Below, piece after piece: positions 10,841 to 35,806 of a stretch of 64,000 nt of DNA. The notes beneath the pieces are model-generated. The model saw nothing but the letters and a program-made list of their open reading frames with translations, made no database searches and was not told the DNA's origin. The stretch covers positions 15,162 to 79,161 of the forward strand of contig CAZUEO010000005.1 in the NCBI GenBank assembly GCA_964619675.1, given 5' to 3'. The DNA comes from an uncultured Planctomycetaceae bacterium. Its GTDB lineage: Bacteria; Planctomycetota; Phycisphaerae; Sedimentisphaerales; UBA12454. The translations under genes and the position numbers were made by a program. Numbering within the stretch: position 1 is the first letter of the stretch; every line of letters starts with the position of its first letter.

Positions 10841-10915
10841 GGTGGGAGTAGCTCAGTTGGTTAGAGCATCAGATTGTGGATCTGAGGGTCGCGGGTTCGA
10901 TTCCCGTCTCTCACC
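10841..10915 (+). tRNA. tRNA-His (anticodon GTG), with an encoded G-1 and no encoded CCA
   Basis: A manual cloverleaf fold gives acceptor GTGGGAG/CTCTCAC, D arm GCTC..GAGC and anticodon stem TCAGA/TCTGA with loop TTGTGGA. The T arm is GCGGG-TTCGATT-CCCGT, and an extra 5' G pairs with discriminator C. Confidence 0.92.
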
Positions 10916-23351: not shown

Positions 23352-26282
23352 TTATAACAGGCCGCAGGCCTTGGCCAAGATTTTAATCGGGTGTTCGACT
23401 TTTTTGCCGGTTATATGTTCAATCTGCATTTTGCAGGTTGAGCATTCTGTTAAAACGACATCTGCTCCTGATTTTTCTATTTTTTCTGCCAGTTTCCTGC
23501 CGATTTGCATTGAAAGCTCGTAATTTTTCTTTTGCATCCCGAACGTGCCCGCTATCCCGCAGCATCCGCCGTCAAGCTCTTTTACGTCAATCCCCGCAAG
23601 CTCTTTTAAAACCTTTATTGACGTGGGTTTATCTCCCAATGCAAGAAGATGGCAGGGCGTATGATGAACAAAAACGTTACCGTTTAGCCGTCGCCGGAAC
23701 GGCGATGAGTCATTCCCGCGTAAGCAGGAATCCAGTTTATTTTGGTTCATTAAGTTTTTCAGATATTCAAAAAGCTCATACGTATTTTCCGAAACCATCT
23801 TTGCTTCACTGCTATCTATAAAAAACCGCAAATCTTCTTTAAGACACAAGGCCGCGCTAGGCTCGGAGCAGACAATTTTATAACCCTGCCTTACGGCCTC
23901 GGACAGAGATTGAACATTATATTCTAAATCTTTTTTACTTGTTTTTATGTCGCCGTAAACAATGGCAGGTAGCGGCGCAGGCCTTTGTTTGGGAATAGTT
24001 ACATCGATATTATTGAATCTTAAAAATTTTATAACGGCAAAGCCAAGTTCGTGGTCGTTATAATTAACAAAGGTATCCGTAAAATACGCAACCTTATCGA
24101 CAGGGTTTTGTAATTTAGGCTGCTCTGCTAAATATTTGTTTGCTTTTCTTATAAAAGTCGAGAAGCCGAATTTCGGCATTTTTCTTCTTTTATCTATGCC
24201 TGTTAAAATTTGCATAATCCATCTGGCAGGCGCAAGGCTCATAAAAATATTGCTCAGCGGCGCAAAAGCAGAGGCGAGCATACTCATATAGCGGTTGGAA
24301 GCCAAAATCTTTGCTGTGCGGCTCTTTGTCAATTTCGTGCGGACTTCCATCATCATTTTTGGAACATCCACACCCGAAGGGCAATCAATCACGCAAGCCC
24401 TGCAATTCAGGCAGGTTGCGAGAATTTCTCTGAATTTCTTCGATTCTAAATCCTGCTCTGTCAGAATTCCCTTTGCCCAGGCGCTGAGCAGATTTGCTCT
24501 TGCGCGAGAAGAAAACATCTCATCTCCTGTTGCACGAAACACAGGACACATCCGCAAGCCCTCTTCATTACTTCGGCAAACCCCGCAGCCGCTGCATTGA
24601 ACAAGCTCAAACTTAAATTCGTCAGGCTTAAAATTAAGTTTTGTCTTTACTCTCTCGTCGATAATTTTATTTTTGCCGCGCAGGTCCTGTGTCATTATAT
24701 CGGTTCTGTCGCTGATGATTTTGCCCGGGTTGAGAATATTCGAAGGGTCAAAGATTTTCTTTATCTGTCTTAAAATTTCATAATATTCATTGCCGAACTG
24801 TTTCCTGATAAATGCCGCTCGCACCAGGCCGTCGGCATGTTCGCCGCTTATCGAGCCGCCCAGCGACCAGGCAAGCGAGAAAACCTCATCGGCTATCTGT
24901 GTCATTTTTTTAACATCGTCGGGCTTTGACAAATCCAGATAAGGCCTTATATGCAGTTCGCCGTCGCCCGCATGGCCGTAATAGGCCATATCAACTTCGT
25001 ATTTTCTGCCGATTTTCTCAAGCCCCCTCACATAGTCGGCCAGCCTCGTATTCTCAACGGAAACATCCTCAACGAAGGCAACAGGCTGTTTCAAGCCCTT
25101 TACCCTGCTTAAAAGCGGCACCGCATCCTTTCGGCATTTCCACAACCTCTTTTGCACGGCAGGCTCGAAGATGGTTGTCTTGTTGAACGCAAGAGAACTG
25201 ACCGCCAAAATAGTTTTTCCAATTTTGTCTTTAACTTCCGGCACCGTCTGGCCTGAATGCTCGACAAGCAGACTTGCAGCCGAGACAGGATTGAGAATAT
25301 TGCGATACTGCTCGAAGGCGTCTCTTGCGATTTTAATCAGTCTGCTGTCCATCAGCTCGCAGGCGTCGGCGCCGCAATTGACAATCAGCGGCACTGCTTT
25401 AGCCGTTTTCTCAAGCGAATCGAATTCAAACTGCACTACTGCTTTGACCTGCTCCGCATCAACCGTCCGCAGCGTAATTTCAGTAAAAACCGCCAGTGTG
25501 CCTTCAGAACCTGCGAGAAGTTTGGCCATATCAATTTTGTTGCCCTGAACAATCTCTGCGATATTGTATCCGCTGTGGCTGCGTTTTGTTTTCGGCTGAG
25601 CCTTTTCAATAATCGAAGCATTTGAATTCAGCAGTTCAAAACATTTTTGCGAAATGGTTAGCCCCAACCCCTGTGGTCGGGAGTTTAGCTCAACATTATT
25701 TACAAATTCAGCAGCCGTACCGTCCGCAAGAACCGCCTTTATTTTTTCAACATACTGGGCGATGTAACCATATTTTAGTGAGTGTGAACCGGTAGCGTTA
25801 TTTGCGACAACGCCGCCTGCTGTAGCGCGGTTGCTGCTTGACGGGTCCGGCCCGATTTTTTTGCCGAACTTCGCAAGGAAACTATTAACCTCGTCAAGCA
25901 CAACGCCCGGCTGGCAGACTACAGTGCTTACATCGGTGCTTGCGCCGATAATCTTGTTCATATAGCGGGTCGTATCGAGCATAATGCCGCTCGTTAGCGA
26001 CTCTCCCGCAAGGCCGCTGCCCGCCCCGCGAGCAACGACAGGTATATTATTGCGATAAGCGTATCTTACAACAATAGCAACGTCGTCTTCATTTTTGGGC
26101 GCAACGACGCAAAGCGGGATTATCTGGTAAATGCTCGCATCGGTGCTGAACGCCGCGCGCGTAAAAATATCAGCCAAACAATCGCCCGCTATCAATTGCG
26201 AAATTTCTTTGGCAATCTGCTGCGGTGCTGAAGAACTTTTGACAGGTCTGTTCATTTGACTTTCATTATAGTTTATTTTCAT
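23352..26282 (-). CDS. YdiJ-like FAD-linked oxidase fused to 4Fe-4S and CCG (GlcF/HdrD-like) domains
   Basis: The N-terminal FAD_binding_4 region (RGAGSGLAGES), two ferredoxin-type Cys clusters (CSGCGVCRS, CLNCRACVIDCP) and a C-terminal CCGIAGTFG motif are present. The protein is 976 aa. Confidence 0.85.
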   Translation of the reverse strand: MKINYNESQMNRPVKSSSAPQQIAKEISQLIAGDCLADIFTRAAFSTDASIYQIIPLCVVAPKNEDDVAIVVRYAYRNNIPVVARGAGSGLAGESLTSGIMLDTTRYMNKIIGASTDVSTVVCQPGVVLDEVNSFLAKFGKKIGPDPSSSNRATAGGVVANNATGSHSLKYGYIAQYVEKIKAVLADGTAAEFVNNVELNSRPQGLGLTISQKCFELLNSNASIIEKAQPKTKRSHSGYNIAEIVQGNKIDMAKLLAGSEGTLAVFTEITLRTVDAEQVKAVVQFEFDSLEKTAKAVPLIVNCGADACELMDSRLIKIARDAFEQYRNILNPVSAASLLVEHSGQTVPEVKDKIGKTILAVSSLAFNKTTIFEPAVQKRLWKCRKDAVPLLSRVKGLKQPVAFVEDVSVENTRLADYVRGLEKIGRKYEVDMAYYGHAGDGELHIRPYLDLSKPDDVKKMTQIADEVFSLAWSLGGSISGEHADGLVRAAFIRKQFGNEYYEILRQIKKIFDPSNILNPGKIISDRTDIMTQDLRGKNKIIDERVKTKLNFKPDEFKFELVQCSGCGVCRSNEEGLRMCPVFRATGDEMFSSRARANLLSAWAKGILTEQDLESKKFREILATCLNCRACVIDCPSGVDVPKMMMEVRTKLTKSRTAKILASNRYMSMLASAFAPLSNIFMSLAPARWIMQILTGIDKRRKMPKFGFSTFIRKANKYLAEQPKLQNPVDKVAYFTDTFVNYNDHELGFAVIKFLRFNNIDVTIPKQRPAPLPAIVYGDIKTSKKDLEYNVQSLSEAVRQGYKIVCSEPSAALCLKEDLRFFIDSSEAKMVSENTYELFEYLKNLMNQNKLDSCLRGNDSSPFRRRLNGNVFVHHTPCHLLALGDKPTSIKVLKELAGIDVKELDGGCCGIAGTFGMQKKNYELSMQIGRKLAEKIEKSGADVVLTECSTCKMQIEHITGKKVEHPIKILAKACGLL

Positions 26283-26916
26283 TATTTTGTCTATGCCTGC
26301 GGCGCGGCTTTTCTGCCCTGCTTCTCAAATCCTCCTGCAGCAGATAGCTTCTGAATGGCTCATTTTTGAAACACGGGAAGTTCAGCGGCGCGTATTCTTC
26401 TTCCTGCTGCTGCAGCACAAATTTATCGCGTGCCATAGCCGCGACGATTCGGTTATGCGGGCTGTCAGGCAGTTGGAATGATAATTGTTTGCCGCCGCTT
26501 AGCTGATATGTTGCCTGGCAGTATTTTCCACACTTCCTGTTCTTTAGGCAGACACCGATAAATCCTGTTCCGTTTTTGCATTTCTTATTCAGGTTATTTT
26601 GTCTTTTGGTTACAATCCGCAGATTTTCTCTTCGGTTATCAAGCGGGTCTCTGTTCCTGTGGTCGACGAGCTGGCCTTCTTTGGCATTCATTACGAACCG
26701 TGAAAGCCGCAGGTGCCTTTGTGGCGGTTTATCTCCGACGATAATTACCGGATAGCCTTCGCTTGCGATTTGGATTGTCTTGATATCGCCGTTGTATTTT
26801 CTGTAAGGCGGTTCGTGTCGGGTGCTGAAAATTTTGTAATAGATATCCGCATCGACTTTTACGAGTCGGCCTCTGACTTTGAACATCAGGTAATCGATTT
26901 TGCATTTAGTTGCCAT
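26266..26916 (-). CDS. Free-standing HNH endonuclease with a C-terminal AP2-like DNA-binding domain
   Basis: VDHRNRDPLDNRRENLRIVTKRQNNLN is an HNH_3 motif, followed by GFIGVCLKN..KYCQATYQL..FQLP (AP2-like). The ATG at 26916 is preceded by GGAGAG, and the upstream 28 codons of the tracked ORF were rejected. Confidence 0.75.
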   Translation of the reverse strand: MATKCKIDYLMFKVRGRLVKVDADIYYKIFSTRHEPPYRKYNGDIKTIQIASEGYPVIIVGDKPPQRHLRLSRFVMNAKEGQLVDHRNRDPLDNRRENLRIVTKRQNNLNKKCKNGTGFIGVCLKNRKCGKYCQATYQLSGGKQLSFQLPDSPHNRIVAAMARDKFVLQQQEEEYAPLNFPCFKNEPFRSYLLQEDLRSRAEKPRRRHRQNNENKL

Positions 26917-27004
26917 ACGTTCTCTCCAAATGTCGAATTCAAAAAATTTTAAATATTGAATTTTACATCTTAAATTAGTTATTTGCTTGCCAAATAACAC
27001 AGCT

Positions 27005-27287: not shown

Positions 27288-28139
27288 TTATTTTTTACCG
27301 TCGTCCCTTATATCTTCGAATGAAACCTGCAGTCCCTGCAGGTCTGTTACGCTTATTTCTCCTTTGATAAACTGCCGAACAGCGGGCAGTGTGCTGTTTT
27401 TGATTGTTTCTGCGTTGCCGTCAACGATTACTTTGCCGTTATGCAGCATTATAATCCGGTCTGCTATCTTATATGCGCTGTTCATATCGTGTGTAACCAC
27501 TATGGTTGTAACGCCGAGCTCTTTTCTCAGTTTCAAAATCAGTTCGTTAATAATATCCGCTCTTACAGGGTCAAGTCCCGTTGTCGGCTCATCGTAGAGG
27601 ATAACTTCCGGATTCAGTGCGATTGCCCTTGCAAGTGCGACCCTTTTTTTCTGTCCGCCGGAGAGCCTTGCCGGATAATAATTTTGAAAGCCGTCCATTC
27701 CCATCATTGCAAGCTTGGTCCTGACAATCTCGTCGAGCTTTTTATGGTCTTTGATATGCTGCTGCTGCTCGACCGGGAAGATGATATTTTCATAAACGGT
27801 CATACTGTCGAACAGTGCCCCGCTTTGGAACAGAAAGCCCATCTGCGTGCGGATATCGCCGAGTTTGCTCTCAGGCAGGTTATCGATTCGCTGACCGTGA
27901 AAATAGACTTCCCCTGAGCCAGGCCGCAGTAGTACTATTATATGTTTTATGAGTACGGTTTTTCCGCATCCGCTTGGCCCGATTATAGCGGTAGTCTTGC
28001 CCTTTTCGAAGGCAAGCGAGATATCGTTAAGCACGACATTTTTTCCGAACCTTTTGACAAGGTTTTTAAGAACGATTATTCTATCGCCTGACCGCCTTTG
28101 GCGGACCTCGCTTTGAGCGGGTTTTATTTCCTTTTCCAT
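27288..28139 (-). CDS. mlaF: ABC transporter ATP-binding protein, MlaF/Ttg2A-like
   Basis: Walker A GPSGCGKT, signature LSGGQKKRVALARA and Walker B ILYDEPTTGLD are present. Its partner permease is at 34970-35806. Confidence 0.8.
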   Translation of the reverse strand: MEKEIKPAQSEVRQRRSGDRIIVLKNLVKRFGKNVVLNDISLAFEKGKTTAIIGPSGCGKTVLIKHIIVLLRPGSGEVYFHGQRIDNLPESKLGDIRTQMGFLFQSGALFDSMTVYENIIFPVEQQQHIKDHKKLDEIVRTKLAMMGMDGFQNYYPARLSGGQKKRVALARAIALNPEVILYDEPTTGLDPVRADIINELILKLRKELGVTTIVVTHDMNSAYKIADRIIMLHNGKVIVDGNAETIKNSTLPAVRQFIKGEISVTDLQGLQVSFEDIRDDGKK

Positions 28140-28151
28140 TTCAACCTTATT

Positions 28152-28982
28152 TTATTTATTGCCTTTAAAAAGTTTTTTGTTTTCAGGCCGCTGCAGATAG
28201 TTTTGTCTCGAAATTACTCTTTTACTGGACTTTGATTCAAGGTCTTTGCGTGCCTTTCCTGCAACATCGCCTCCTTCGACAGCGGCTTGCTTATTTTCGT
28301 CAAATCTCTGTGCATCGCGATTTCTGGTTATTTCTGTTGTGGCCGCCTCACCAAGCATAGAAAAAATTAGCTCGAGGTCTGTCATATGATCTCGCAGATT
28401 TTCGCGGTCAAGTCCTTTAAGTTTCTTATATTCGCCTGGCGTTAAACCAAAAGCCGCTTTCGATATTTCCGCGGTTAATATCCCATATTCTGTTTGTTCC
28501 TTAACGCCCCGGGTCTTCCATTCGTCGGTAAGTTCTTCCCGAACAGCTATCCCCCGCATACGTTTTTCTATCCAGTTATCGGAGTATCCCTTGGCCTTGT
28601 AAAGTGCGCGGGTTCTTTTTGTCGCCAGTTCCGGGTCTTCAATTTCCCGGATGCGTTCATAACCGACCCTTGCCAGCCAGCGTTTAAAAGGCTCTGCTTT
28701 GGGGCTTGGTATTGACTGAATTATGCGGAAAATACCTTCCGTATCGGCACAATTTACCTTCTGTGGGCCGCCGTCGGTATCTATCAAAAGGGTATGTACA
28801 AATTGTACCCATCCTTTGGATAGCTGTGGGTCTCGTTTCCGCATTTTATTGATGTATTGTTTTGGGTCATTGGAATCAGTCAGCGCAAAAACGACATCTT
28901 CGACAACGAACCACCATTCGTCTTTATGAATAGTTTTTCTTATTTCCTTGCCTTTGAATACTGCTATTTTTGTCGTTTCCAT
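28152..28982 (-). CDS. Bro-N domain protein (DinD-like, 276 aa)
   Basis: The N-terminal Bro-N-like region is FKGKEIRKTIHKDEWWFVVEDVVFAL. The C-terminal region has a DinD-like length and pattern (LRDHMTDLELIFSMLGEAATTEI). Confidence 0.65.
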   Translation of the reverse strand: METTKIAVFKGKEIRKTIHKDEWWFVVEDVVFALTDSNDPKQYINKMRKRDPQLSKGWVQFVHTLLIDTDGGPQKVNCADTEGIFRIIQSIPSPKAEPFKRWLARVGYERIREIEDPELATKRTRALYKAKGYSDNWIEKRMRGIAVREELTDEWKTRGVKEQTEYGILTAEISKAAFGLTPGEYKKLKGLDRENLRDHMTDLELIFSMLGEAATTEITRNRDAQRFDENKQAAVEGGDVAGKARKDLESKSSKRVISRQNYLQRPENKKLFKGNK

Positions 28983-29128
28983 TTTGACCTTATTTTATAA
29001 TTTATTCCCCTCGTCCGCAACAGTTCTTTTCGTGGTTAGCCCTGCCAACACTTTGGCGGGGTTTGTCATTTTTTTACGTATTTTGGATGCAGTTGCTGCC
29101 TTCGGTTCGGTAATCAATTGTTCCCCTG

Positions 29129-29163
29129 CCCCGTGAGATGCCGCTTCGGCTATCTCATCGGGG
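29129..29163. repeat. Bulged hairpin element, copy L (CCCCGTGAGAT-gccgcttcggct-ATCTCA-t-CGGGG)
   Basis: It forms an 11-bp stem with one bulged T plus a 3-bp inner stem. A second copy with compensatory changes lies at 34645-34679. Confidence 0.8.
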
Positions 29164-29220
29164 TCATCGCAGCCCTCGGCAGCAACTATAATTCTTGCGA
29201 CAGTTTACCCCGACAGTTTA

Positions 29221-29238
29221 TCCCTGCAAAAGCAGGGA
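29221..29238. repeat. Perfect 7-bp hairpin TCCCTGC-aaaa-GCAGGGA, preceded by a 13-nt tandem duplication (cgacagtttaYcc x2, 29198-29223)
   Basis: I read it directly from the sequence. It resembles the in-frame hairpin at 23712-23731. Confidence 0.7.
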
Positions 29239-29280
29239 AAGGTAGGGGCCATTTGCTTTGCTCCTATTTATTTATCTTTG

Positions 29281-31908
29281 CTAATTCAATATCACATCAT
29301 TAAGAGTTTTTACGGGGGCTTTAAAACTGACATCCTTAAATTGCTCGAAATGCTTTTTGCCGCACTTGATTTTTTGTTGTTCTTCTTGTCGCAATTCCTC
29401 TATGCGATTTGTCCCTTTGGTTTCTGCAACAAAATAAACTTTCTTATCTCCTTCATAAACCAGTGCCCAATCAGGATTATATGTACCGAGCGGAGTTTCT
29501 ATCTTAAACCAGAAAGGCAGTTTGAGATAAAACTTGATATCATCTCTTTTTTCACAGTCTTTTGCAAATTCCTTTTCCGTATAGCTTTCTATTTGAACAT
29601 AATCATAAACGGTTTTTTCTTTTTTCATAACTTCGAATAAATCGTCAAGGTATCCGTAAAGTTCTTCACTGTCAAAAAGCCTCTGTTCCCAGTATGAATC
29701 TGCTATCTTTTCATATTTAATCCCATCAACCATCATTTCATTTAGAACCTCGTTTATCTCGACACAAACTTTATCCATAAACTGCTGAGGGTTGATAAAT
29801 ACATCATCAATTTTGCCCGATTCAAGTAAAATGCGGCAAATGGTATCACGGGTTAATCTGGTCTTGTTCTGAATGTATGAAAGAATATCCGGGACGGTTT
29901 CTATATCGCCATATAAATCCCTACTGGATTGTGTTCTGAGTTCTGCCGTAACAGCGGTTTTATCAATTTCAATATCGGCTTTGGTCCTTATCAGTTTTGG
30001 CTTTGTGATTTTAATATCACCTATTTTTTTGCCTGCCCTCTTTATCAATTCATTGGTATCATAATCAACGCTGTAATGGGTCTTCTGCTTAATTTTATCC
30101 CATAAGAGTTTAAAATTCTCATCAAGCTGTAAATTCTTTTGCAGCTTTATTTGTTTTTTCTTCTTTTTGTTCTTAATCCTGCCGCCGAAACTAACGCCGC
30201 ATTCTTCTTCAATCTCAGACTGTAGGGCTTTTGCAAAATCTTCATAATATTCATTCGCTATAACGGTAAGAATATTTATGTTTTCATCAAATACTCTTTT
30301 ACCATCCTGATTTACAGGCAGTCTCATACCTCTGCCGATCTCCTGTCTTTTCTTTAGTGTTGATTGTGTTTCATTCAGTGTGCATATTTGAAATACGTTT
30401 GGATTATCCCAGCCTTCGCGTAAGGCCGAATGTGAAAATATAAATCTCAAAGGTTCGTTCACATCAAGAAGCCGTTCTTTGTCTTTCATTATCAGTTGAT
30501 ACGCACTATCATCGTCTATGGTATCCCTCCCTTCGCGAGAATCCTTCCAGTTTCCTTTTTTATCCTGCGCGAAATAACCATTGTGAGCCTGCCGGGCCTT
30601 ATAATTCAGCAACCCTTTATATTTGTTTTGGTTTCTTGCCTTTTCGTAAAATTCTTCAAACCATAAAGCTATTTTGCCTTTAACAGGATTTTCATTTTCA
30701 TAATTGCGGTAATTAGCCACTCTGTCGATAAAGAACAGTGTTAAAACTTTTATCCCCTTATCTTTTAATCGTTTTTCCTTTTCAAAATGATTATTTATTG
30801 TGCTTTCAATTTGATACCTCATTATCTCATCGGTCAGCCCGCCTTGTTTTTGCCCGACATTAATAGTTATACCGTTATTAAATGTTATGCCCTCCCTGTC
30901 TATTTCACTTACAATAAATCCCTCTTTATACAGGTCCCTTTTGTTTGACTTTTCATAAAGGTCGTCGCCAACCGAAACATTCACATCTTTTTTCACGACC
31001 CCCTCGTTTGTATTAACATCTATTTTCAGCTTTGCGATTATTTTTCTAGTTTGCGGTTTTATGCTTTTTACTTCAATATACGCCAGGTTGAAATTATCTG
31101 CCTCTGTTATCCCATCAACCTCAATTCTTTTGACAAGCCCCAAATCATAAGCCCTTACGGGGTCAAGCCGGTAAATTTCATTGTATCTTACCGTATGTGT
31201 TGCGGAATATCGAAGCGTGCATAATGGATTAAGATTTGCTATCGCCTGCCTCCTGATATCCGTCTCCATATTTTGAGGCTCATCTACGATAACTATCGGT
31301 CTTGTCGCCTTGATAAACTCTGCCGGCACTCCCCAGTCGCTTTGCTGAAAAAATATGTTTCCTGCCCTTGTGAACTGGTCTATATTCATTACCATTATCT
31401 GCAAAGTGTTGGTCGTTGCAAAATTTCTGGCAAGCCCTCTTTTTTTAGGGTCAAATTCGTGGTAATCCAGTGTCGGCTTTTCATAGAGCATATCAAAATG
31501 CTCTTTTGTTATTTCAAGGTTCTTTAATACGCCTTCTTTAATCGCCAGGCTCGGCACAACAATAATAAACTTCTTAAAACCGTAATTTTTATGTAATTCG
31601 TGTATCGTCCGCAGATAAACATAAGTTTTGCCCGTGCCGGTTTCCATCTCTATTGAAAAATGAAAACCATCGAGTTTATTTGAGACTTCTATTTCATTTC
31701 TCTGCTGAATAATTTGAAGATTTTTTAATATTGTTTCATTGTCAAGGATTAAATTATTCGCAACAACGCTCAAAAATGTTCCGCCAACTGATGTAGCCTT
31801 TGCATAGGCAAAATCGCTCGCCCCCGCAGGTTGACCCGCAAATATTTCAACCGTTGCATTTATAGCATCTTTCTGAAATTCCTGATTTGCGTCAAATTGA
31901 AGTTTCAT
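29281..31908 (-). CDS. res: Type III restriction endonuclease, Res subunit
   Basis: The MKLQFDANQEFQKDAI N-terminus, helicase motif I METGTGKT, motif II IVIVDEPQNM and a C-terminal PD-(D/E)xK region (NPDWALV..FVAETKG) are present. The ATG at 31908 is preferred over 31938. Confidence 0.88.
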   Translation of the reverse strand: MKLQFDANQEFQKDAINATVEIFAGQPAGASDFAYAKATSVGGTFLSVVANNLILDNETILKNLQIIQQRNEIEVSNKLDGFHFSIEMETGTGKTYVYLRTIHELHKNYGFKKFIIVVPSLAIKEGVLKNLEITKEHFDMLYEKPTLDYHEFDPKKRGLARNFATTNTLQIMVMNIDQFTRAGNIFFQQSDWGVPAEFIKATRPIVIVDEPQNMETDIRRQAIANLNPLCTLRYSATHTVRYNEIYRLDPVRAYDLGLVKRIEVDGITEADNFNLAYIEVKSIKPQTRKIIAKLKIDVNTNEGVVKKDVNVSVGDDLYEKSNKRDLYKEGFIVSEIDREGITFNNGITINVGQKQGGLTDEIMRYQIESTINNHFEKEKRLKDKGIKVLTLFFIDRVANYRNYENENPVKGKIALWFEEFYEKARNQNKYKGLLNYKARQAHNGYFAQDKKGNWKDSREGRDTIDDDSAYQLIMKDKERLLDVNEPLRFIFSHSALREGWDNPNVFQICTLNETQSTLKKRQEIGRGMRLPVNQDGKRVFDENINILTVIANEYYEDFAKALQSEIEEECGVSFGGRIKNKKKKKQIKLQKNLQLDENFKLLWDKIKQKTHYSVDYDTNELIKRAGKKIGDIKITKPKLIRTKADIEIDKTAVTAELRTQSSRDLYGDIETVPDILSYIQNKTRLTRDTICRILLESGKIDDVFINPQQFMDKVCVEINEVLNEMMVDGIKYEKIADSYWEQRLFDSEELYGYLDDLFEVMKKEKTVYDYVQIESYTEKEFAKDCEKRDDIKFYLKLPFWFKIETPLGTYNPDWALVYEGDKKVYFVAETKGTNRIEELRQEEQQKIKCGKKHFEQFKDVSFKAPVKTLNDVILN

Positions 31909-31913
31909 TTTGC

Positions 31914-31944
31914 ACCAATTTGAAATTTGAAATCTCAAATCTGA
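31914..31944. repeat. Direct repeat, left copy (core 27-mer atttgaaatttgaaatctcaaatctga at 31918-31944)
   Basis: It is identical over 27 nt, and 30/31 over the extended match, to 32468-32498. It is itself built of 7-nt units (31921-31948), and AATCTCA-aatc-TGAGATT forms a hairpin at 31931-31948. Confidence 0.9.
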
Positions 31945-31946
31945 GA

Positions 31947-32450
31947 TTATTTATCTTCTGGATAATCCTGCGGCCTGGCCTTTCTCAAAGTTTCCTGAAT
32001 TTGTTTTTCAAACGCATCTGCACGTCTTTTCGCTTCATATATGCCGCGTGTATTTTCATTTAAATGCCGTTGTCCTTTTATATCGCTGTTTTGCAGGCTG
32101 TCCGCCCATCCGCGTATCTGCCGTGAGCACGATTCCGCTTTTGATTTGAGATCTGAAATCTGAGATTTCAGATGTGCCGCTTCTGGAAACAGTTCTGTAA
32201 AAAGCAGCATTGAGCGTGTTTCTCCGCACGAGCCGCGGGAGATATATAAGAAGGCGAGCAGTTCCGCCGTTGAGCCGCGCTCAAATCCTTCTGCTATATT
32301 ATTCGAAACTGAAAGCGAAGAACGACGCATCTGGTCGCGAAGGTCCCCGGGCTGATTGAAGAACTTGTCTTTAGTCAGCTCATACACTCCTTTGGCCAGT
32401 TCTATCGCTAACTGCCACACCGGTAAATCTTCAAACCGCTCATATTTCAT
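31947..32450 (-). CDS. Four-helix-bundle protein (23S rRNA-intervening-sequence protein family), copy 1, with an extended C-terminus
   Basis: FEDLPVWQLAIELAKGVYELT..LRDQMRRSSLSVSNNIAEGFERGS..FLYISRGSCGETRS matches the family signature. It is inserted between mod and res. Confidence 0.85.
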   Translation of the reverse strand: MKYERFEDLPVWQLAIELAKGVYELTKDKFFNQPGDLRDQMRRSSLSVSNNIAEGFERGSTAELLAFLYISRGSCGETRSMLLFTELFPEAAHLKSQISDLKSKAESCSRQIRGWADSLQNSDIKGQRHLNENTRGIYEAKRRADAFEKQIQETLRKARPQDYPEDK

Positions 32451-32467
32451 CTTTTTTATCCTTCAAA

Positions 32468-32574
32468 ACCTATTTGAAATTTGAAATCTCAAATCTGATA
32501 TCCGTTTATGAAATCTGAAACTTCAAATCTGCTATTTTTTAGTTTTCTGAAATTTGAGATTTTAAATCTGAGAT
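32468..32574. repeat. Direct repeat, right copy (32468-32498), plus two more 4-unit heptamer arrays (32509-32536 and 32547-32574)
   Basis: The arrays read tgaaatt tgaaatc tcaaatc tgatatc / tgaaatc tgaaact tcaaatc tgctatt / ctgaaat ttgagat tttaaat ctgagat. Together they fill the mod-4HB intergenic gap. Confidence 0.9.
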
Positions 32575-32577
32575 TCG

Positions 32578-34449
32578 TCATATTACTTTAAATTCTATTC
32601 TTTCGCCTTCCATCTGCAGAGCCGTATTCGTCTTTAACCGGTCGTTATTACTAAAAGCAATATCAAGGCAGGTAAACCTCTGGGGCTTTTCTTTTATAAT
32701 CTTTTCGACGAATTTTTTTGTTATTTTCTCTGCAAGGCAGATAATCTCCATACCGTCCGCAAGACTGAAATAATCAATTGAATCAAAATTTTTCTTTTCA
32801 ATCTTTACATTCAAATCAAATCGGCTGTTTTTAAGAATAATCTCAAAGAGCATATCTTCAACGGCCGCACCCTTTTTCGTATTATCAACGAACATCTTCA
32901 TCTGCTCTTTTAATTGGCCGGCCGTTTTTATATCTTCTCGCCACTGCTTGAAATTACTCTGCTCTAATTTAAAGACCTTAAATCCCAAATCCAATTTGTT
33001 TTTGTCAAATTTGAGATTCCCTTCTATCTCCTTTTTTATCTTTTCCGCCGCCCGCCGGAGCCTTTCCTTGCCTATTTCAGCTATTGTCTTAAAGCCCGCT
33101 TTATATGCCTCGCTGTCTTCTTCGCAAGGCTCTGCCAACTGAACGCAGATAAATTTCCTGTTCCCGCCATCTTCAGCATTCAAAGCCATTACTGCGTGTG
33201 CCGTTGTACAAGACCCGGCAAAAAAATCGAGAACGATATCATCTTCACCTAAGCCTTGTACTAACAGCTCTCTAATTAATTCTGTAGGCTTTGGGAACTC
33301 CATATATCTAGCTTTAAATAATTCTTCTAATTCATTGGTTCCATTTCTTGTATATATATCAGGTGCTATAATCGAAGAATAACCCGTGAACTCGTCATTA
33401 AGTTCAGAAAGAAATATTTTTCTGCGTGGTCTTCCTTTTTGTGACTGCGGCCAGATTATCCTATCTTCTTCAATCAATTTTTGCATGGTGTTTTTATCAT
33501 ATCGCCACCCCATTTTAGGTTTGCCATAATTAATACCAGTCTTGGGATTTATTAAGTCATAATGACAATTAGGCCTTTGTTCTTCCGGCAATAAACCTAC
33601 CATATTTCCGCTTACCCAGTCTCCTCTTGGATCATTGTCTGGATTTTTGTATTGTTCTTTATTTCTTTCTGAACCTCTTATCCTATTTCCTGAAGTTCTC
33701 GTATAAACAAGTACATATTCATGATCGATCGAAACGCCCGTGATATTTCGATTATCTTTATTTTGACGGCTTTTCCAAATAAGTTGCGCAACAAAACTTT
33801 CCTCTCCAAAAATTTCATTCATAATCATTCGCAGGTTATAGACTTCGTTGTCATCGATTGAAACAAAAATAACGCCGTCATCACGGAGCAGATTTCTTGC
33901 CAGAAAAAGTCTCGGATATATCATTGAAAGCCAGTTTGAATGAAAATGGCCTGCATCTTTACTGTTCTTTCGCCAGAAACCGTCTTTTGTAAGTAGTCCT
34001 TCGGCGTCTTTTATCCCTGCCCGCAGTTCGTAATCTTCTTTCTCCTCTTTGAATCTGTCGGGATAAATAAAACTGTCGTTGCCGGTATTATATGGCGGGT
34101 CGATATAAATCATCTTTATTTTGCCGTAATAGGTTTTTTGCAGGACTTTAAGGACCTCTAAATTATCCCCTTCAATAAAAATATTTTCTGAGCTCTGAGA
34201 TTTCAAATCTGAGATTTTCAGTGTTGCTGTCGTGGTTTCTTGTATATGGCGAAAGCACTCGCTTTTTCCCGCCCAGCTTAGGCCGTATCGTTCATTATTT
34301 GTATCGAGTTCTTCGCCGAGTGTTTGTTTTAGTTTGTCTGGGCTGATTTTGCCTTCGGCAAAAATCTCTGGGAAGCGGGATTTGAGCAGTTCCGCAAGTT
34401 CTTTTTGTGGGCTTGCCGAATTGCCGTCTATTTTATGTATCTTTGCCAT
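32578..34449 (-). CDS. mod: Type III DNA methyltransferase, Mod subunit (beta-class N6-adenine)
   Basis: IYIDPPYNTGND (motif IV) lies upstream of VLDFFAGSCTT (motif I). The 623-aa gene is adjacent to res. Confidence 0.88.
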   Translation of the reverse strand: MAKIHKIDGNSASPQKELAELLKSRFPEIFAEGKISPDKLKQTLGEELDTNNERYGLSWAGKSECFRHIQETTTATLKISDLKSQSSENIFIEGDNLEVLKVLQKTYYGKIKMIYIDPPYNTGNDSFIYPDRFKEEKEDYELRAGIKDAEGLLTKDGFWRKNSKDAGHFHSNWLSMIYPRLFLARNLLRDDGVIFVSIDDNEVYNLRMIMNEIFGEESFVAQLIWKSRQNKDNRNITGVSIDHEYVLVYTRTSGNRIRGSERNKEQYKNPDNDPRGDWVSGNMVGLLPEEQRPNCHYDLINPKTGINYGKPKMGWRYDKNTMQKLIEEDRIIWPQSQKGRPRRKIFLSELNDEFTGYSSIIAPDIYTRNGTNELEELFKARYMEFPKPTELIRELLVQGLGEDDIVLDFFAGSCTTAHAVMALNAEDGGNRKFICVQLAEPCEEDSEAYKAGFKTIAEIGKERLRRAAEKIKKEIEGNLKFDKNKLDLGFKVFKLEQSNFKQWREDIKTAGQLKEQMKMFVDNTKKGAAVEDMLFEIILKNSRFDLNVKIEKKNFDSIDYFSLADGMEIICLAEKITKKFVEKIIKEKPQRFTCLDIAFSNNDRLKTNTALQMEGERIEFKVI

Positions 34450-34644
34450 TCGCTTATTTCTCCTTTGCTTCTAATTCGGCTCGATTTTCCCCTATTTTCT
34501 GCCATTCTTTTTTTCCCCAGATTTTTAAATCCGTGCCCGATTCCTTAATTCTGTCTACTGAATTCTCCGTAAGGAGTCCATAGGACTGTATTCTGAATTC
34601 TCTTTTCCGCCATTCCTTTATTTCTCCTATGTTTACCCCGCCTG

Positions 34645-34679
34645 CCCTGTGAGATGTCTCTTAGACTATCTCATCAGGG
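34645..34679. repeat. Bulged hairpin element, copy R (CCCTGTGAGAT-gtctcttagact-ATCTCA-t-CAGGG)
   Basis: Its architecture matches 29129-29163. C:G becomes T:A in both the outer stem and the inner stem. Confidence 0.8.
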
Positions 34680-34711
34680 TGAGATATCCGCCCGCAGGCG
34701 GCTCCTTTCAC

Positions 34712-34739
34712 CAAATACCATATACTAAATGCCAAATAC
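34712..34739. repeat. Heptanucleotide array caaatac catatac taaatgc caaatac
   Basis: Four contiguous 7-nt units, read directly from the sequence. Confidence 0.8.
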
Positions 34740-34790
34740 TCTGGACTTCTTTGTACTCTTCGTGCCCTCTGTGGTGAGAGTTTAGTGTAC

Positions 34791-34869
34791 ATTTTTAATT
34801 TTTATTTGTCGTTTTTATTTTTTATTTTTTATATTTGATATTTTTTACTGGCGACCAGCGACCAGCGAC
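34791..34869. repeat. Heptanucleotide arrays: an ATTTTTW-type run of 8 units (34791-34846), then gcgacca x2.7 (34851-34869)
   Basis: The 7-nt register is maintained across attttta attttta tttgtcg tttttat tttttat tttttat atttgat atttttt, followed by gcgacca gcgacca gcgac. Confidence 0.8.
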
Positions 34870-34940
34870 TAATTATCGACTCGGCTATTCGACTTTCAAC
34901 TCTTGCCCGCCGCAGGCGGGCCGGCGGTTCCATTATTCTG

Positions 34941-34968
34941 TAATCTATAATCTACAATCTGTAATCTG
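34941..34968. repeat. Heptanucleotide array taatcta taatcta caatctg taatctg, abutting the mlaE stop
   Basis: Four contiguous 7-nt units end 1 nt before the mlaE stop codon (34970-34972). Confidence 0.85.
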
Positions 34969-34969
34969 C

Positions 34970-35806
34970 TTAAAGCAGTATTTTCAATGGCCACAATGTT
35001 GAGTAAATAGCCTTGAATACCACTACCAGGACAAAGTCTATCGCCAGTATCAGGATAAAACTGCCGACGAACCCTTCTGTACACGCCTGGCCTACGCCAT
35101 GAGCACCTTCTTTGCAGTGGAAGCCTTTATAGCAGCTTACGCCTGCGATTGCTGCTCCGAAGAAGAAGCCTTTTACAACGCCTATTGAGATATCCCACAT
35201 TTCGACGCCTCCGGCGCTGAGGCTCCAGTAGGCTTTGCTATTGATACCGAGGTAGGGTACGCTGATGAAGTATCCGCCGAGGATACCGAGGATATCGGCA
35301 TAGATTATCAGGAATGGTGTAAGGAGCAGGCAGGCTATTAATCGTGGAGCCACGAGGTATTTTATTGGGTCGGTGCCCATACTGCGGACTGCCAGTATTT
35401 GTTCTGTTACGTTCATTGTGCCGAGTTCTGCGGTAAGTGCTCCGCCGACTCTGCCGGCGAGCATAACTGCTGCCAGCACAGGCCCCAGTTCTTTTACGAC
35501 TGACAGGTTAATTAGTACGCCAAGATGTTCTTCAATTCCCAGCCCTGCAAGCTGGTCATAGGCCTGAATCGCAAGCACCATCCCCACAAACGCTCCGGTG
35601 ATAGCAACGACGAGTACGCTGCGGACGCCGATGGCGAGCATCTGATTCCATATCAATGGATAAGTCGGGGGCCTTAAACACGCTGCAAAGGAGGCGACTA
35701 AAGATTCAGCCTGAAACCTGGCGAATCTGCCGCAGTTGCCCACAGCGGTAACTACCCAGCCGCCCAACTGCTCCAGCATCGAACTTCTTGTTTGCTGCTG
35801 TGCCAT
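34970..35806 (-). CDS. mlaE: ABC transporter permease, MlaE/Ttg2B-like
   Basis: The MlaE-family pattern is present (ILAVRSMGTDPIKYLVAPRLIA), with a polytopic C-terminal half. Confidence 0.82.
   Translation of the reverse strand: MAQQQTRSSMLEQLGGWVVTAVGNCGRFARFQAESLVASFAACLRPPTYPLIWNQMLAIGVRSVLVVAITGAFVGMVLAIQAYDQLAGLGIEEHLGVLINLSVVKELGPVLAAVMLAGRVGGALTAELGTMNVTEQILAVRSMGTDPIKYLVAPRLIACLLLTPFLIIYADILGILGGYFISVPYLGINSKAYWSLSAGGVEMWDISIGVVKGFFFGAAIAGVSCYKGFHCKEGAHGVGQACTEGFVGSFILILAIDFVLVVVFKAIYSTLWPLKILL

What the first reader, a model, noticed from the sequence alone, without database searches (positions are those of the whole stretch)
28140..34969. A 6.8-kb nested accessory island splits an mlaE-mlaF ABC transporter pair
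The MlaE-like permease gene ends at 34970 and the MlaF-like ATPase gene starts at 28139. In mla/ttg2-type loci these two genes are normally adjacent or overlapping. Here they are separated by a roughly 520-bp repeat-rich non-coding zone, then mod, 4HB, res and the Bro-N/DinD-like gene, all on the same strand as mlaEF. The Bro-N stop is only 12 nt from the mlaF start, so mlaF expression probably now depends on read-through from island genes. No integrase, transposase or tRNA target is present. Instead, each of the three modules has its own flanking repeat pair, described in separate findings. The island looks AT-richer than its flanks by eye.
Basis: partly seen in the sequence, partly recalled or inferred. 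Interest (0 to 1): 0.7.

Follow-up and report, generated by a model that had tools for sequence, protein, structure and literature searches.

The report
Defence-gene island splitting mlaE–mlaF operon
A restriction-modification system and a small DNA-binding "candidate defence" gene have been inserted, without any recombinase gene of their own, between two normally adjacent lipid-transporter genes of a Phycisphaerae bacterium; this is a real but fairly ordinary defence islet with some unusual junction details.

Summary
On the minus strand the order is alaS, mlaE (34970-35806), 520 nt non-coding, mod, a 4HB/PF05635 gene, res, 298 nt non-coding, a Bro-N gene, then mlaF (27288-28139) 12 nt later.

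- **Synteny:** In 73 of 80 related Phycisphaerae/Sedimentisphaerales loci, mlaF directly follows mlaE (median gap 67 nt). The 6.8 kb is therefore derived.
- **Composite origin:** It was built by at least two events.
  - **RM cassette:** a low-GC, intact Type III cassette. Relatives 80-85% identical sit in at least four unrelated chromosomal contexts and already carry the 4HB gene.
  - **Bro-N gene:** it matches PADLOC candidate PDC-S13 and has a DdrC-like predicted fold. It sits exactly at the mlaF start, with a roughly 31-nt duplication of the ribosome-binding and start region. Two relatives have it at this site without the RM.
- **Hairpin pair:** The pair bracketing the RM belongs to a clade-wide REP-like repeat family (at least 120 metagenome hits). 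It is not part of the RM cassette.
- **Mobility genes:** No integrase, transposase or tRNA target is present.
- **Likely mechanism (inferred):** recombination-mediated cassette gain at an insertion hot spot. Only insertions that keep mlaF translatable would survive.
- **Untested:** read-through expression of mlaF is plausible but not shown.

Interest is moderate: a new member of a known kind.

The parts
34970..35806 (-). mlaE permease, upstream flank of the island, intact
   Evidence: PF02405 E 1.2e-73, TIGR00056 above cut-off. It is 71-89% identical to MlaE in 80 related loci.
34450..34969 (-). 520-nt non-coding zone, a mosaic of clade-wide repeats. It holds an 8-mer tandem array (34932-34965), a GC-only hairpin (~34905-34921), an A-rich repeat (34790-34859) and hairpin W1.
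   Evidence: No ORF of 60 aa or more on the minus strand apart from one overlapping mlaE. The predicted fold has z = -3.0. blastn coverage by other loci: the A-rich element in about 30 loci, the hairpin in more than 110.
34640..34681 (-). REP-like hairpin W1 (ACCCUGAUGAGAUAG-UCU-AAG-AGA-CAUCUCACAGGGCAGG), upstream of mod
   Evidence: Covariance-model hit, 66.9 bits, E 1.8e-16. 85% identical to W2, with compensatory changes in the inner stem.
34609..34634 (-). Upstream duplicate of the mod ribosome-binding and start region (the mod copy is at 34445-34470)
   Evidence: Repeat family D4, 85% over 26 nt. Local alignment score 33, against a maximum of 30 in shuffles.
32578..34449 (-). Type III mod methyltransferase, intact. 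The target-recognition segment (about 33247-33771) is not homologous to relatives.
   Evidence: PADLOC MTase_III E 2.5e-192. Matches EcoP15I Mod and H. pylori Mod structures by sequence. DPPY at residue 117 and FAGSCTT at 410, both conserved in relatives. DNA homology to L202 and L204 breaks at 33771-33247.
31909..32577 (-). Embedded 4HB cassette. The ORF (31947-32450, PF05635/TIGR02436) is flanked by GATTTSA-type short-repeat arrays that are mutually complementary. The cassette is bounded by a duplicated ATGA.
   Evidence: Pfam E 4e-25. L201 has mod and res overlapping at ATGA with no insert. Predicted flank duplex energies are -29.1 kcal/mol (window), -27.7 (L202) and -22.8 (L204). Direct repeat D1 is 94% identical; inverted repeat I1 is 79% complementary.
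29281..31908 (-). Type III res subunit, intact (875 aa from the ATG at 31908)
   Evidence: PADLOC REase_III E 1.4e-284. EcoP15I Res E 1.2e-57. GTGKT, DEPQ and PD...ETK motifs are present. A database protein 100% identical to it is also 875 aa.
28983..29280 (-). 298-nt non-coding zone. It holds hairpin W2 inside a larger conserved structured element (29027-29193).
   Evidence: Predicted fold z = -3.1. 85-95% identical to elements in L092, L187, L161, L140 and L138.
29124..29165 (-). REP-like hairpin W2, downstream of res, in the same orientation as W1
   Evidence: Covariance-model hit, 67.5 bits, E 1.1e-16.
28152..28982 (-). Bro-N-domain gene, a PADLOC candidate PDC-S13 with a DdrC-like predicted fold
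   Evidence: PF02498 E 3e-12. PDC-S13 E 5.9e-113 over the full length. phrog_15286 E 2e-83. AlphaFold2 pLDDT 80.5, and the top Foldseek match is DdrC, E 8.5e-8. Present at the same site in L004 and L006.
28124..28155 (-). Downstream copy of the ~31-nt direct repeat that brackets Bro-N (upstream copy at 28967-28998). It contains the mlaF ribosome-binding site and ATG.
   Evidence: Repeat D6, 81%. Score 38, against a maximum of 29 in shuffles and a next-best of 22 among 861 start-context pairs.
27288..28139 (-). mlaF ATPase, downstream flank, intact
   Evidence: ABC_tran E 5e-32; best NCBIfam hit is MlaF. 63-81% identical to the ATPase that directly follows mlaE in relatives.
26266..27000 (-). 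HNH_3 homing-endonuclease-like gene. It is a separate, second insertion between mlaF and the FAD oxidase and is not part of the 6.8 kb.
   Evidence: PF13392 E 6e-9; phrog_99 HNH endonuclease. Absent from this position in most relatives, where mlaF and the FAD oxidase are contiguous.

Best explanation
The segment is a small, recombinase-free defence islet. At least two separate insertions built it inside an ancestrally compact, probably translationally coupled mlaE-mlaF operon of a Sedimentisphaerales-type (Phycisphaerae) bacterium.

**Shown**
1. The ancestral state is mlaE stop, 6-17 nt, then mlaF start.
2. A 276-aa Bro-N DNA-binding gene (PDC-S13 family) sits exactly at the mlaF start codon. 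It uses what was the mlaF leader, and a second copy of the ~31-nt ribosome-binding and start region now serves mlaF.
3. A complete, low-GC Type III restriction-modification cassette lies between mlaE and Bro-N. It already carried a 4HB (PF05635) gene embedded at the mod-stop/res-start overlap.
4. Close relatives of this cassette occupy several unrelated chromosomal sites. Homology to them ends at the mod ribosome-binding site and the res stop codon.
5. The two non-coding zones are mosaics of clade-wide short repeats, including one REP-like hairpin on each side of the RM.

**Inferred**
- The cassettes arrived by horizontal transfer. They were fixed by host recombination: either homologous recombination through conserved flanks or dispersed repeats, as in neisserial minimal mobile elements, or illegitimate insertion with target duplication.
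- Selection kept only those insertions that are co-oriented and preserve a ribosome-binding site for mlaF.
- Functionally, Mod methylates and Res restricts foreign DNA.
- The 4HB and Bro-N genes are hitch-hiking embedded genes of unproven, possibly defence-related, function.
- mlaF is now transcribed from an island promoter or by read-through, as the last gene of a mod-4HB-res-BroN-mlaF unit.
For: **Synteny**
- mlaF directly follows mlaE in 73 of 80 loci. Compact junctions occur in L003, L005, L010, L013 and L034.

**Bro-N**
- L004 and L006 have Bro-N alone at this site.
- The sequence upstream of Bro-N in L006 matches the mlaF leader of L001.
- The direct repeat is an outlier among gene starts.
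- The nearest Bro-N relatives (88-89% identical) lie in other contexts. One is in the same genome as L017, where mlaEF is contiguous.

**RM cassette**
- The RM is intact.
- RM relatives occur in at least four other contexts. Homology to the window spans only 34466-29291.
- The empty mod/res junction (ATGA) is seen in L201.
- mod and res have low GC.

**Hot spot and mobility**
- Other contents occupy or adjoin the same cluster: Hachiman plus HNH after mlaE in L012, and ABC-3C-type genes between mlaF and HNH in L001.
- No mobility genes are present.

**Published parallels**
- Embedded genes in defence operons (bioRxiv 10.1101/2024.01.29.577857).
- Minimal mobile elements (PMC1538595).
Against: - No donor sequence or same-species empty site is available, so the insertion mechanism and the exact ends of the RM-bearing segment are not defined. 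The 503-nt and 298-nt non-coding flanks have no homologue next to RM relatives.
- The two hairpins bracket the RM more neatly than chance predicts (P about 0.013). A pure flank-recombination model does not explain this.
- The distribution of Bro-N on the tree needs either at least two gains at the same site or at least three precise losses.
- Promoter and terminator calls are consensus scans that were not calibrated for Planctomycetota. Counts are close to shuffled expectation: 24 found against 18.7 expected.
- The window comes from a metagenome-assembled genome, so mis-assembly cannot be excluded formally.
Confidence: 0.72

Rival explanations
1. The RM module is the cargo of a non-autonomous, hairpin-ended element. 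A single-strand (Y1/HUH, IS200/IS605- or REP/RAYT-like) transposase encoded elsewhere would mobilise it. Hairpins W1 and W2 would be its left and right ends.
For: - An exhaustive search finds exactly two hairpins in 64 kb. They are in the same orientation, one on each side of the RM. The chance of that placement is about 0.013.
- The hairpin keeps its structure through compensatory changes: 29 cells changed on both sides against 10.4 expected, with 0 of 500 shuffles reaching that value.
- The family is abundant and dispersed, with at least 120 metagenome stretches.
- A weaker copy lies about 670 nt after res in L201.
Against: - RM relatives in L202-L210 have no hairpins nearby.
- Homology between RM copies stops at the coding block, roughly 175-215 nt inside the hairpins at the mod end and 125 nt at the res end.
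- Hairpin pairs occur with no cargo (L002, 262 nt apart). Most copies are single or in tandem arrays.
- No transposase is present in the window.
- The sequence between each hairpin and the RM is made of other clade-wide repeats.
Confidence: 0.1
2. Bro-N (PDC-S13) and the 4HB gene are ORF-sized, operon-invading selfish cassettes. They insert at translational junctions (start codons or ATGA overlaps) by a dedicated but undescribed mechanism that duplicates the junction. On this reading the island reflects that activity rather than passive recombination.
For: - A ~31-nt junction duplication flanks Bro-N.
- ATGA or ATGAAAC is duplicated at the 4HB ends in the window, L202 and L204.
- A ~50-nt duplicate of the res start flanks another small insert in L207.
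- The mod ribosome-binding and start region is duplicated.
- Bro-N homologues are 75-89% identical across phyla and sit in many contexts. One is embedded between cas4 and cas1 in Arcobacter.
- The 4HB gene with the same repeat-array flanks occurs in a non-RM context, L155.
Against: - Bro-N copies in other loci show no conserved ends or junction duplication.
- The predicted Bro-N fold is a DdrC-like DNA binder with no nuclease or recombinase domain. The 4HB protein is a small helical bundle.
- The duplicated copies are only 81-85% identical. That fits remnants of allele replacement, or selection on surviving insertions, as well as it fits a mechanism.
Confidence: 0.13
3. The arrangement is an assembly artefact, or the split order is ancestral and relatives lost the intervening genes.
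For: The source is a metagenome-assembled genome, and short repeats lie at both borders of the RM.
Against: - MlaE, Res and Bro-N proteins 100% identical to the window's are each recorded on a contig of the same length, 103,913 nt.
- The repeats are only about 40 nt long.
- The Bro-N/mlaF junction is independently present in L004.
- Contiguous mlaEF is found across the whole clade, including deep branches at 71-75% identity. That makes loss in all of them implausible.
Confidence: 0.04

Closest known systems
Type III restriction-modification systems (EcoP15I/EcoP1I type)
   Same: - Mod has DPPY and an FxGxG-like motif. Res has SF2 helicase motifs and a C-terminal PD-(D/E)XK nuclease.
- mod lies upstream of res on one strand.
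- Both subunits are sequence homologues of EcoP15I.
- The target-recognition segment of Mod differs from its close relatives. I read that as a swapped target-recognition domain, on the general knowledge that Mod specificity segments vary between related systems.
   Different: A 167-aa PF05635 four-helix-bundle gene is embedded between mod and res. In the un-interrupted relative L201 these two genes overlap by ATGA. Activity and recognition motif are not known.
Minimal mobile elements of Neisseria (Saunders & Snyder 2002; PMC1538595)
   Same: - A defined site between conserved chromosomal genes holds different whole-gene cassettes, or nothing, in different lineages.
- No transposase or integrase is present.
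- RM systems are typical cargo, as I recall from the literature on these elements.
- These features match.
   Different: - Here the site lies inside an operon, between partner genes.
- Exchange by transformation and flank homology has not been demonstrated.
- The comparison spans different species or genera of uncultured bacteria, not strains of one species.
Genes 'embedded' in defence systems and PADLOC phage-defence candidates (Payne et al., bioRxiv 10.1101/2024.01.29.577857)
   Same: - Co-oriented extra genes are nested between the genes of a defence operon (here 4HB between mod and res).
- The Bro-N gene matches candidate family PDC-S13 over its full length.
- A homologue is embedded in a type I-B cas operon.
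   Different: [quoted passage not shown]
- Here the PDC-S13 gene is embedded in a housekeeping transporter operon (also in L004 and L006, without any RM). This weakens the inference that embedding implies defence for this family.
- PDC candidates are untested.
23S rRNA intervening sequences that carry a PF05635 ('S23p') ORF, for example in Coxiella burnetii (PMC4990558)
   Same: - The ORF family is the same.
- The ORF is bracketed by complementary sequences predicted to form a long stem.
- The Coxiella element is described as selfish, horizontally acquired, and excised from RNA by RNase III.
   Different: - Here the cassette lies in a protein-coding operon, not in rRNA.
- Its flanks are arrays of short GATTTSA repeats.
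- RNase III processing is only a conjecture.
REP/BIME-type repetitive extragenic palindromes
   Same: A short imperfect palindrome with conserved bulges, many dispersed intergenic copies, tandem and mosaic arrangements with other short repeats, and stems that covary.
   Different: - The sequence is different, and there is no Rfam family for it.
- No associated RAYT gene was seen.
- Copies are often nested inside locus-specific short tandem arrays.
RM gene insertion with long target duplication, described for Helicobacter pylori RM genes (Kobayashi laboratory, around 2000). This is my recollection of the literature and was not retrieved here.
   Same: An accessory gene is inserted in a conserved gene order, flanked by a direct repeat tens of nucleotides long that derives from the target.
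   Different: Here the clear duplication flanks the Bro-N gene and small inserts at gene starts, not the RM module itself.

Membership tests
Type III restriction-modification system | Mod subunit: N6-adenine methyltransferase with the DPPY catalytic motif and an AdoMet-binding FxGxG-type motif | tested here: met
   DPPY at residue 117. FAGSCTT at 410, with Cys in place of the last Gly; this is conserved in relatives L202 and L204. PADLOC MTase_III E 2.5e-192. EcoP15I Mod E 1e-77.
Type III restriction-modification system | Res subunit: SF2 helicase/ATPase motifs plus a PD-(D/E)XK endonuclease domain | tested here: met
   GTGKT, DEPQ and PD...ETK motifs. ResIII plus RE_endonuc domains. REase_III E 1.4e-284. 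EcoP15I Res E 1e-57.
Type III restriction-modification system | mod immediately upstream of res in one operon | tested here: inconclusive
   Strand and order are correct, but a 669-nt 4HB cassette intervenes. The relative L201 shows the canonical ATGA overlap.
Type III restriction-modification system | Hemimethylation of a short asymmetric site, and ATP-dependent cleavage that needs two inversely oriented sites | not testable with these tools
   Needs methylome data and biochemistry.
Classical integrase-mediated genomic island | Integrase or recombinase gene, and a tRNA or tmRNA attachment site with flanking att repeats | tested here: not met
   No such Pfam or NCBIfam domain in any of the island ORFs scanned. 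The only tRNA is at 10842.
Classical integrase-mediated genomic island | Absent from relatives and compositionally deviant | tested here: met
   73 of 80 relatives have the empty site. GC is 0.387 for mod and 0.371 for res, against 0.46-0.52 in the flanks.
Minimal-mobile-element-type hot spot | The same site between conserved genes holds alternative cassettes or is empty, and no mobility genes are present | tested here: met
   States seen: empty; Bro-N only (L004, L006); RM plus Bro-N (window); Hachiman plus HNH after mlaE (L012).
Minimal-mobile-element-type hot spot | Exchange by homologous recombination in the flanking genes | not testable with these tools
   Needs within-species population data or transformation experiments.
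Integron gene-cassette array | attC sites (R''/L''...L'/R', with GTTRRRY) after each cassette, and an IntI integrase | tested here: not met
   The hairpin lacks the GTTRRRY/RYYYAAC boxes on inspection of the sequences. Hairpins flank only the RM. No integrase is present.
IS200/IS605-type or REP/RAYT-mobilised element | Subterminal hairpins at both ends in the same orientation | tested here: inconclusive
   Two co-oriented hairpins bracket the RM. However, they lie 125-215 nt outside the conserved cassette and are absent from other RM copies.
IS200/IS605-type or REP/RAYT-mobilised element | A Y1 (HUH) transposase acting in cis or in trans | not tested
   None is found among the roughly 20 window ORFs that were scanned. 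The rest of the genome is not available.
PADLOC candidate PDC-S13 | Full-length match to the family profile | tested here: met
   E 5.9e-113, residues 1-270 against profile positions 1-274 of 286.
PADLOC candidate PDC-S13 | Anti-phage activity | not testable with these tools
   The source paper itself describes PDC families as untested candidates.
MlaFE-type ABC transporter pair | MlaE-family permease | tested here: met
   PF02405 E 1e-73. TIGR00056 scores 233.5 bits against a cut-off of 212.
MlaFE-type ABC transporter pair | Cognate MlaF-type ATPase | tested here: inconclusive
   The best NCBIfam hit is MlaF, but at 214 bits it is below the equivalog cut-off of 441. Partnership is inferred from adjacency of the orthologues in 73 of 80 relatives.
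MlaFE-type ABC transporter pair | MlaD (MCE) and other partners nearby | tested here: inconclusive
   No MCE-domain protein was found among the roughly 20 window ORFs scanned. The remaining window ORFs and the rest of the genome were not examined.

The most novel reading that the evidence does not exclude
The island may record a recombinase-free, junction-targeted mode of gene mobility in Phycisphaerae. On this reading, ORF-sized cassettes (the PDC-S13/Bro-N gene, the PF05635 4HB gene with its repeat-array stems, and small non-coding inserts) enter operons precisely at start codons or stop/start overlaps and duplicate the translation-initiation region. A new covarying hairpin repeat family would mark or promote these events. 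It would also mean that 'embedding' of PDC-S13 and 4HB genes in defence operons reflects selfish operon invasion rather than defence function.
Probability: 0.13. Interest if true: 0.7.

Novelty: new member of a known kind. Interest (0 to 1): 0.4.

Why it matters
- **Operon disruption without gene loss.** A defence islet can be wedged inside a tightly coupled transporter operon without inactivating it. This has a testable consequence: mlaF expression is now tied to defence-gene transcription.
- **Reagents and cases for follow-up.**
  - A conserved mod-4HB-res Type III variant with an un-interrupted relative, suitable for testing what the embedded PF05635 gene does.
  - A PDC-S13 gene embedded in a housekeeping operon. 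This is a caution for 'guilt-by-embedding' predictions.
  - An uncharacterised structured repeat family that is abundant in sediment Phycisphaerae.
- **Overall weight.** None of this overturns current understanding. RM mobility without dedicated recombinases and defence hot spots are already established.

Tried and rejected
- **Own-contig look-ups.** Exact-sequence look-ups of the window's MlaE, MlaF and Res found nothing on record. The source contig and same-species variants could therefore not be examined.
- **Rfam.** There were no hits at gathering threshold on the window, or at E <= 1 on 28900-35000. The hairpin is not a curated RNA family.
- **Hammerhead reading.** The 'CUGAUGAG' in hairpin W1 does not indicate a hammerhead ribozyme. 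No GAAA follows the stem, most copies read CCGAUGAG, and Rfam gave no hit.
- **Viral contigs.** The hairpin pattern has 0 matches.
- **HNH-hairpin association.** 31 of 122 hairpin loci have an HNH_3 homologue, but distance and orientation are inconsistent. I treated this as co-abundance within the clade, not as one element.
- **Integron or attC reading.** Rejected because there are no R boxes and no IntI.
- **Literature.** Searches on PF05635/four-helix-bundle genes in RM systems, and on PDC-S13 by name, found nothing specific.
- **Conserved Bro-N cassette ends.** None were found across loci.
- **Promoter and terminator scan.** Counts were close to shuffled expectation, so it was not used as evidence of function.
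- **DinD label.** No NCBIfam match, and the fold search points to DdrC-like proteins instead.

Full report
**1. What is in the sequence**

The minus strand of 23.3-38.5 kb encodes the following, in order:
- alaS (35808-38492)
- mlaE (34970-35806; PF02405, E 1e-73)
- a 520-nt gap
- a Type III mod (32578-34449)
- a PF05635/TIGR02436 four-helix-bundle gene, here called 4HB (31947-32450)
- a Type III res (29281-31908; a database protein 100% identical to it is also 875 aa)
- a 298-nt gap
- a Bro-N-domain gene (28152-28982)
- mlaF (27288-28139), 12 nt after the Bro-N stop
- an HNH_3 gene (26266-27000)
- a large FAD-oxidase/GlpC-like fusion gene (23352-26282)

The wider neighbourhood is core chromosome, with dnaE, folP, recA and alaS. 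No integrase or transposase domain is present, and the only tRNA lies 17 kb away. mod and res have low GC (0.387 and 0.371) against 0.46-0.52 in the flanks. The 4HB gene, Bro-N and the 298-nt gap are not deviant.

**2. It is an insertion**

MlaE homologues identify the organism as a Phycisphaerae/Sedimentisphaerales MAG. I fetched 80 related genome loci at 71-89% MlaE identity.
- In 73 of them the mlaF orthologue follows mlaE directly. The median gap between alignments is 67 nt and the largest is about 205 nt. The FAD oxidase usually follows mlaF.
- One locus (L004) has a 966-nt gap that is exactly a Bro-N gene.
- Four loci are cut off too early. One of these (L006) shows a Bro-N gene beginning after mlaE.
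- Two (L012, L014) lack mlaF downstream.
- The compact junctions read mlaE-TAA, 6-17 nt, then the mlaF start (L003, L005, L010, L013, L034).

The window has no second mlaE or mlaF, and both genes are full length with intact motifs.

**3. The island is composite**

*(a) Bro-N.*
- The gene matches PADLOC candidate PDC-S13 over its full length (E 6e-113) and phrog_15286.
- An AlphaFold2 model (pLDDT 80.5) resembles the DNA-break-binding protein DdrC of Deinococcus over its whole length (Foldseek E 8.5e-8). No enzymatic domain is apparent.
- The family is very widespread and conserved. 8000 hits were scored, and the best 120 are 75-89% identical yet come from Planctomycetota, Omnitrophica, Patescibacteria and Chloroflexi.
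- The closest relatives (88-89%) lie in unrelated contexts. One is in the same genome as L017, whose mlaEF is contiguous.
- A 46%-identical homologue is embedded between cas4 and cas1 on an Arcobacter plasmid.
- In the window, a ~31-nt direct repeat brackets the gene (28967-28998 and 28124-28155). It is by far the strongest similarity among 861 pairs of gene-start contexts, scoring 38 against a next-best of 22.
- In L006 the sequence upstream of Bro-N matches the mlaF leader of the empty site in L001. Bro-N therefore entered exactly at the mlaF start codon, and mlaF received a second copy of the ribosome-binding region.
- Neighbour-joining trees of the flanking genes place the window with L001 and L002 (no Bro-N). 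They place L004 and L006 with L005 (no Bro-N). This needs either repeated gain at the same site or repeated loss; precise loss through the direct repeat is possible.

*(b) The RM cassette.*
- Both subunits are homologous to EcoP15I and carry all catalytic motifs.
- Res homologues 80-85% identical occur in at least four other contexts:
  - DUF4056 | RM (L202, L203)
  - SH3 | RM | HNH-AP2 (L204-L206)
  - LepA | RM (L207, L208)
  - FolC | RM | DUF4139 (L209, L210)
- DNA homology to the window runs only from 34466, which is 17 nt before the mod ATG, to about 29291. It breaks at 33771-33247, which I read as a swapped Mod target-recognition domain.
- The flanking non-coding zones have no counterpart next to those relatives.

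*(c) The 4HB gene.*
- It is shared, at the same position, by L202-L208. It was therefore inside the cassette before the cassette arrived here.
- L201 shows the un-interrupted state, with the mod stop and res start overlapping as ATGA. In the filled copies ATGA (ATGAAAC in L204) is present at both ends.
- The ORF is flanked by arrays of GATTTSA-type short repeats that are mutually complementary. Predicted duplexes are -23 to -29 kcal/mol in three loci with different sequences.
- A 4HB gene with the same kind of flanks occurs in a non-RM context, L155.
- This resembles the PF05635 ORFs inside 23S rRNA intervening sequences, which are regarded as selfish and are excised by RNase III (PMC4990558).
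- L209 has a different ~1-kb insert at the mod/res junction. L207 has a further small insert flanked by a ~50-nt duplicate of the res start.

**4. The repeats in the non-coding zones**

- The 40-nt pair at 34640-34681 and 29124-29165 is a long imperfect hairpin. An exhaustive covariance-model search finds only these two copies in the window, and they are co-oriented.
- It is not specific to the island.
- The variable stem positions covary: 29 cells are changed on both sides against 10.4 in shuffles. The invariant stem positions were fixed by my search pattern and carry no information.
- Copies are single, paired without cargo (L002) or tandem. They are often nested in locus-specific short tandem arrays.
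- In 1.17 Mb of related loci there are six copies. All but a weak one in L201 are away from RM genes.
- Other parts of both zones are also clade-wide repeats. One is an A-rich element at 34790-34859, which also occurs immediately after Bro-N in L211-L216.
- There is no Rfam match.
- The placement of one hairpin on each side of the RM has a chance probability of about 0.013. I regard that as suggestive only.

**5. How it most likely works**

*Shown:* the ancestral compact operon, the two or more insertion layers, an intact RM, cassette homologues at other sites, and the absence of mobility genes.

*Inferred:*
- Acquisition was by horizontal transfer. Fixation was by host recombination, either through conserved flanks or dispersed repeats (as in minimal mobile elements; PMC1538595) or by illegitimate insertion with target duplication.
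- Selection removed insertions that would uncouple mlaF from a ribosome-binding site or face the wrong way.
- The cluster is an insertion hot spot:
  - Hachiman plus HNH follow mlaE in L012.
  - HNH and an HATPase_c_3 gene follow mlaE in L014.
  - ABC-3C-type genes lie between mlaF and HNH in L001.
  - The HNH gene itself is a lineage-specific insert in front of the FAD oxidase.
- mlaF expression from the island or by read-through is plausible but not demonstrated.
  - Consistent with it: co-orientation, the 12-nt spacer, and no minus-strand terminator-like site in either non-coding zone. The only two such sites in the island are weak 5-bp stems inside the 4HB ORF. A promoter-like site lies at 34899-34872.
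  - Consistent with uncoupling from mlaE: a GC-only hairpin right after mlaE.
  - The scan was not calibrated for this phylum, and its counts are close to shuffled expectation.

**6. Comparison with known systems, and novelty**

- RM systems that move without their own recombinase, defence hot spots, and genes embedded in defence operons (bioRxiv 10.1101/2024.01.29.577857) are all described. The island is a new member of a known kind.
- Less ordinary features:
  - a conserved Type III variant with an embedded PF05635 cassette
  - a PDC-S13 gene embedded in a housekeeping operon with a clean start-region duplication
  - an uncharacterised covarying hairpin repeat family
- These motivate a low-probability novel reading, junction-targeted cassette mobility. 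I could not test it further.

**7. Limits**

- No same-species comparator or donor sequence was available.
- The exact ends of the RM-bearing segment are undefined.
- All functional statements about transcription, methylation, RNase III processing and defence are inferences.

Noticed in passing
window 34640-34681 and 29124-29165; L081-L200; L002:17610-17913: An uncharacterised REP-like hairpin family with the consensus ACCCCGAUGAGAUAG-NNN-AAG-NNN-CAUCUCACGGGGCARG. It has two conserved single-A bulges and a covarying inner stem. It gave at least 120 metagenome hits (mostly freshwater sediment), none in viral contigs, and has no Rfam family. C-A mismatches in the outer stem would be G-U pairs on the opposite strand, so the functional strand is unclear.
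   Followed up: partly
window 34932-34965, 32451-32577, 31912-31946; L001, L004, L016 after mlaE; many of L081-L200: Short degenerate tandem arrays of 7-9-nt units follow stop codons and flank hairpins and 4HB genes. The units include CAGATTA, GATTTGA, CACGAATTA, GGTGAACA and CGTATCT. The unit sequence differs between loci. I have no explanation for them.
   Followed up: partly
window 26266-27000 (promoter-like site at 27033-27005): An HNH_3 homing-endonuclease-like gene overlaps the start of the FAD oxidase by 17 nt. Only the closest relatives (L001, L002, L004, L005) have it at this position. Homologues are very frequent in this clade: 31 of 122 hairpin-bearing metagenome loci, sometimes two per contig, and next to RM copies in L204-L206. 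In L001, L002, L004 and L005, 2-4 kb of extra sequence separates it from mlaF. Only the L001 genes there were scanned, and they are ABC-3C-type.
   Followed up: partly
window 28152-28982; P0242-P0360; L221:5995-6891: The Bro-N/PDC-S13 protein is 75-89% identical across distant phyla (Patescibacteria, Omnitrophica, Chloroflexi, Planctomycetota). In Arcobacter cloacae pACLO a homologue sits between cas4 and cas1b of a type I-B CRISPR-Cas operon. Its predicted fold resembles Deinococcus DdrC.
   Followed up: partly
window 33247-33771: The central part of mod has no DNA homology to otherwise 80-82% identical relatives (L202, L204). This looks like a swapped target-recognition domain and implies a different methylation specificity.
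   Followed up: no
window 34609-34634 versus 34445-34470: A second copy of the mod ribosome-binding site and ATG lies 164 nt upstream of the real one. It heads a 22-codon ORF. Between the two copies are two 29-nt direct repeats (34539-34567 and 34574-34602).
   Followed up: partly
L207:6847-7054; L209:5983-7000: Other mod/res junctions in this RM family carry further inserts. L207 has a ~100-nt segment flanked by an 83%-identical ~50-nt duplicate of the res start. L209 has a ~1-kb segment with small ORFs in place of the 4HB gene.
   Followed up: partly
window 34790-34859; L211-L216:5833-5883; L140, L161, L107, L156, L004: An A-rich repeat element (…aaatatcaaatataaaaaataaaaaataaaaacgacaaataaaaattaaaaatg…) recurs in about 30 fetched loci. 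It often lies just upstream of hairpins, and immediately downstream of the Bro-N gene in an unrelated context.
   Followed up: no
L012:6592-10099; L014:1152-3825: In two relatives mlaE is not followed by mlaF within 6.5-10 kb. In L012 a Hachiman-like pair (HamA plus a helicase) and an HNH gene follow mlaE. In L014 an HNH gene and an HATPase_c_3 protein follow it. Where mlaF went in these genomes is unknown.
   Followed up: partly
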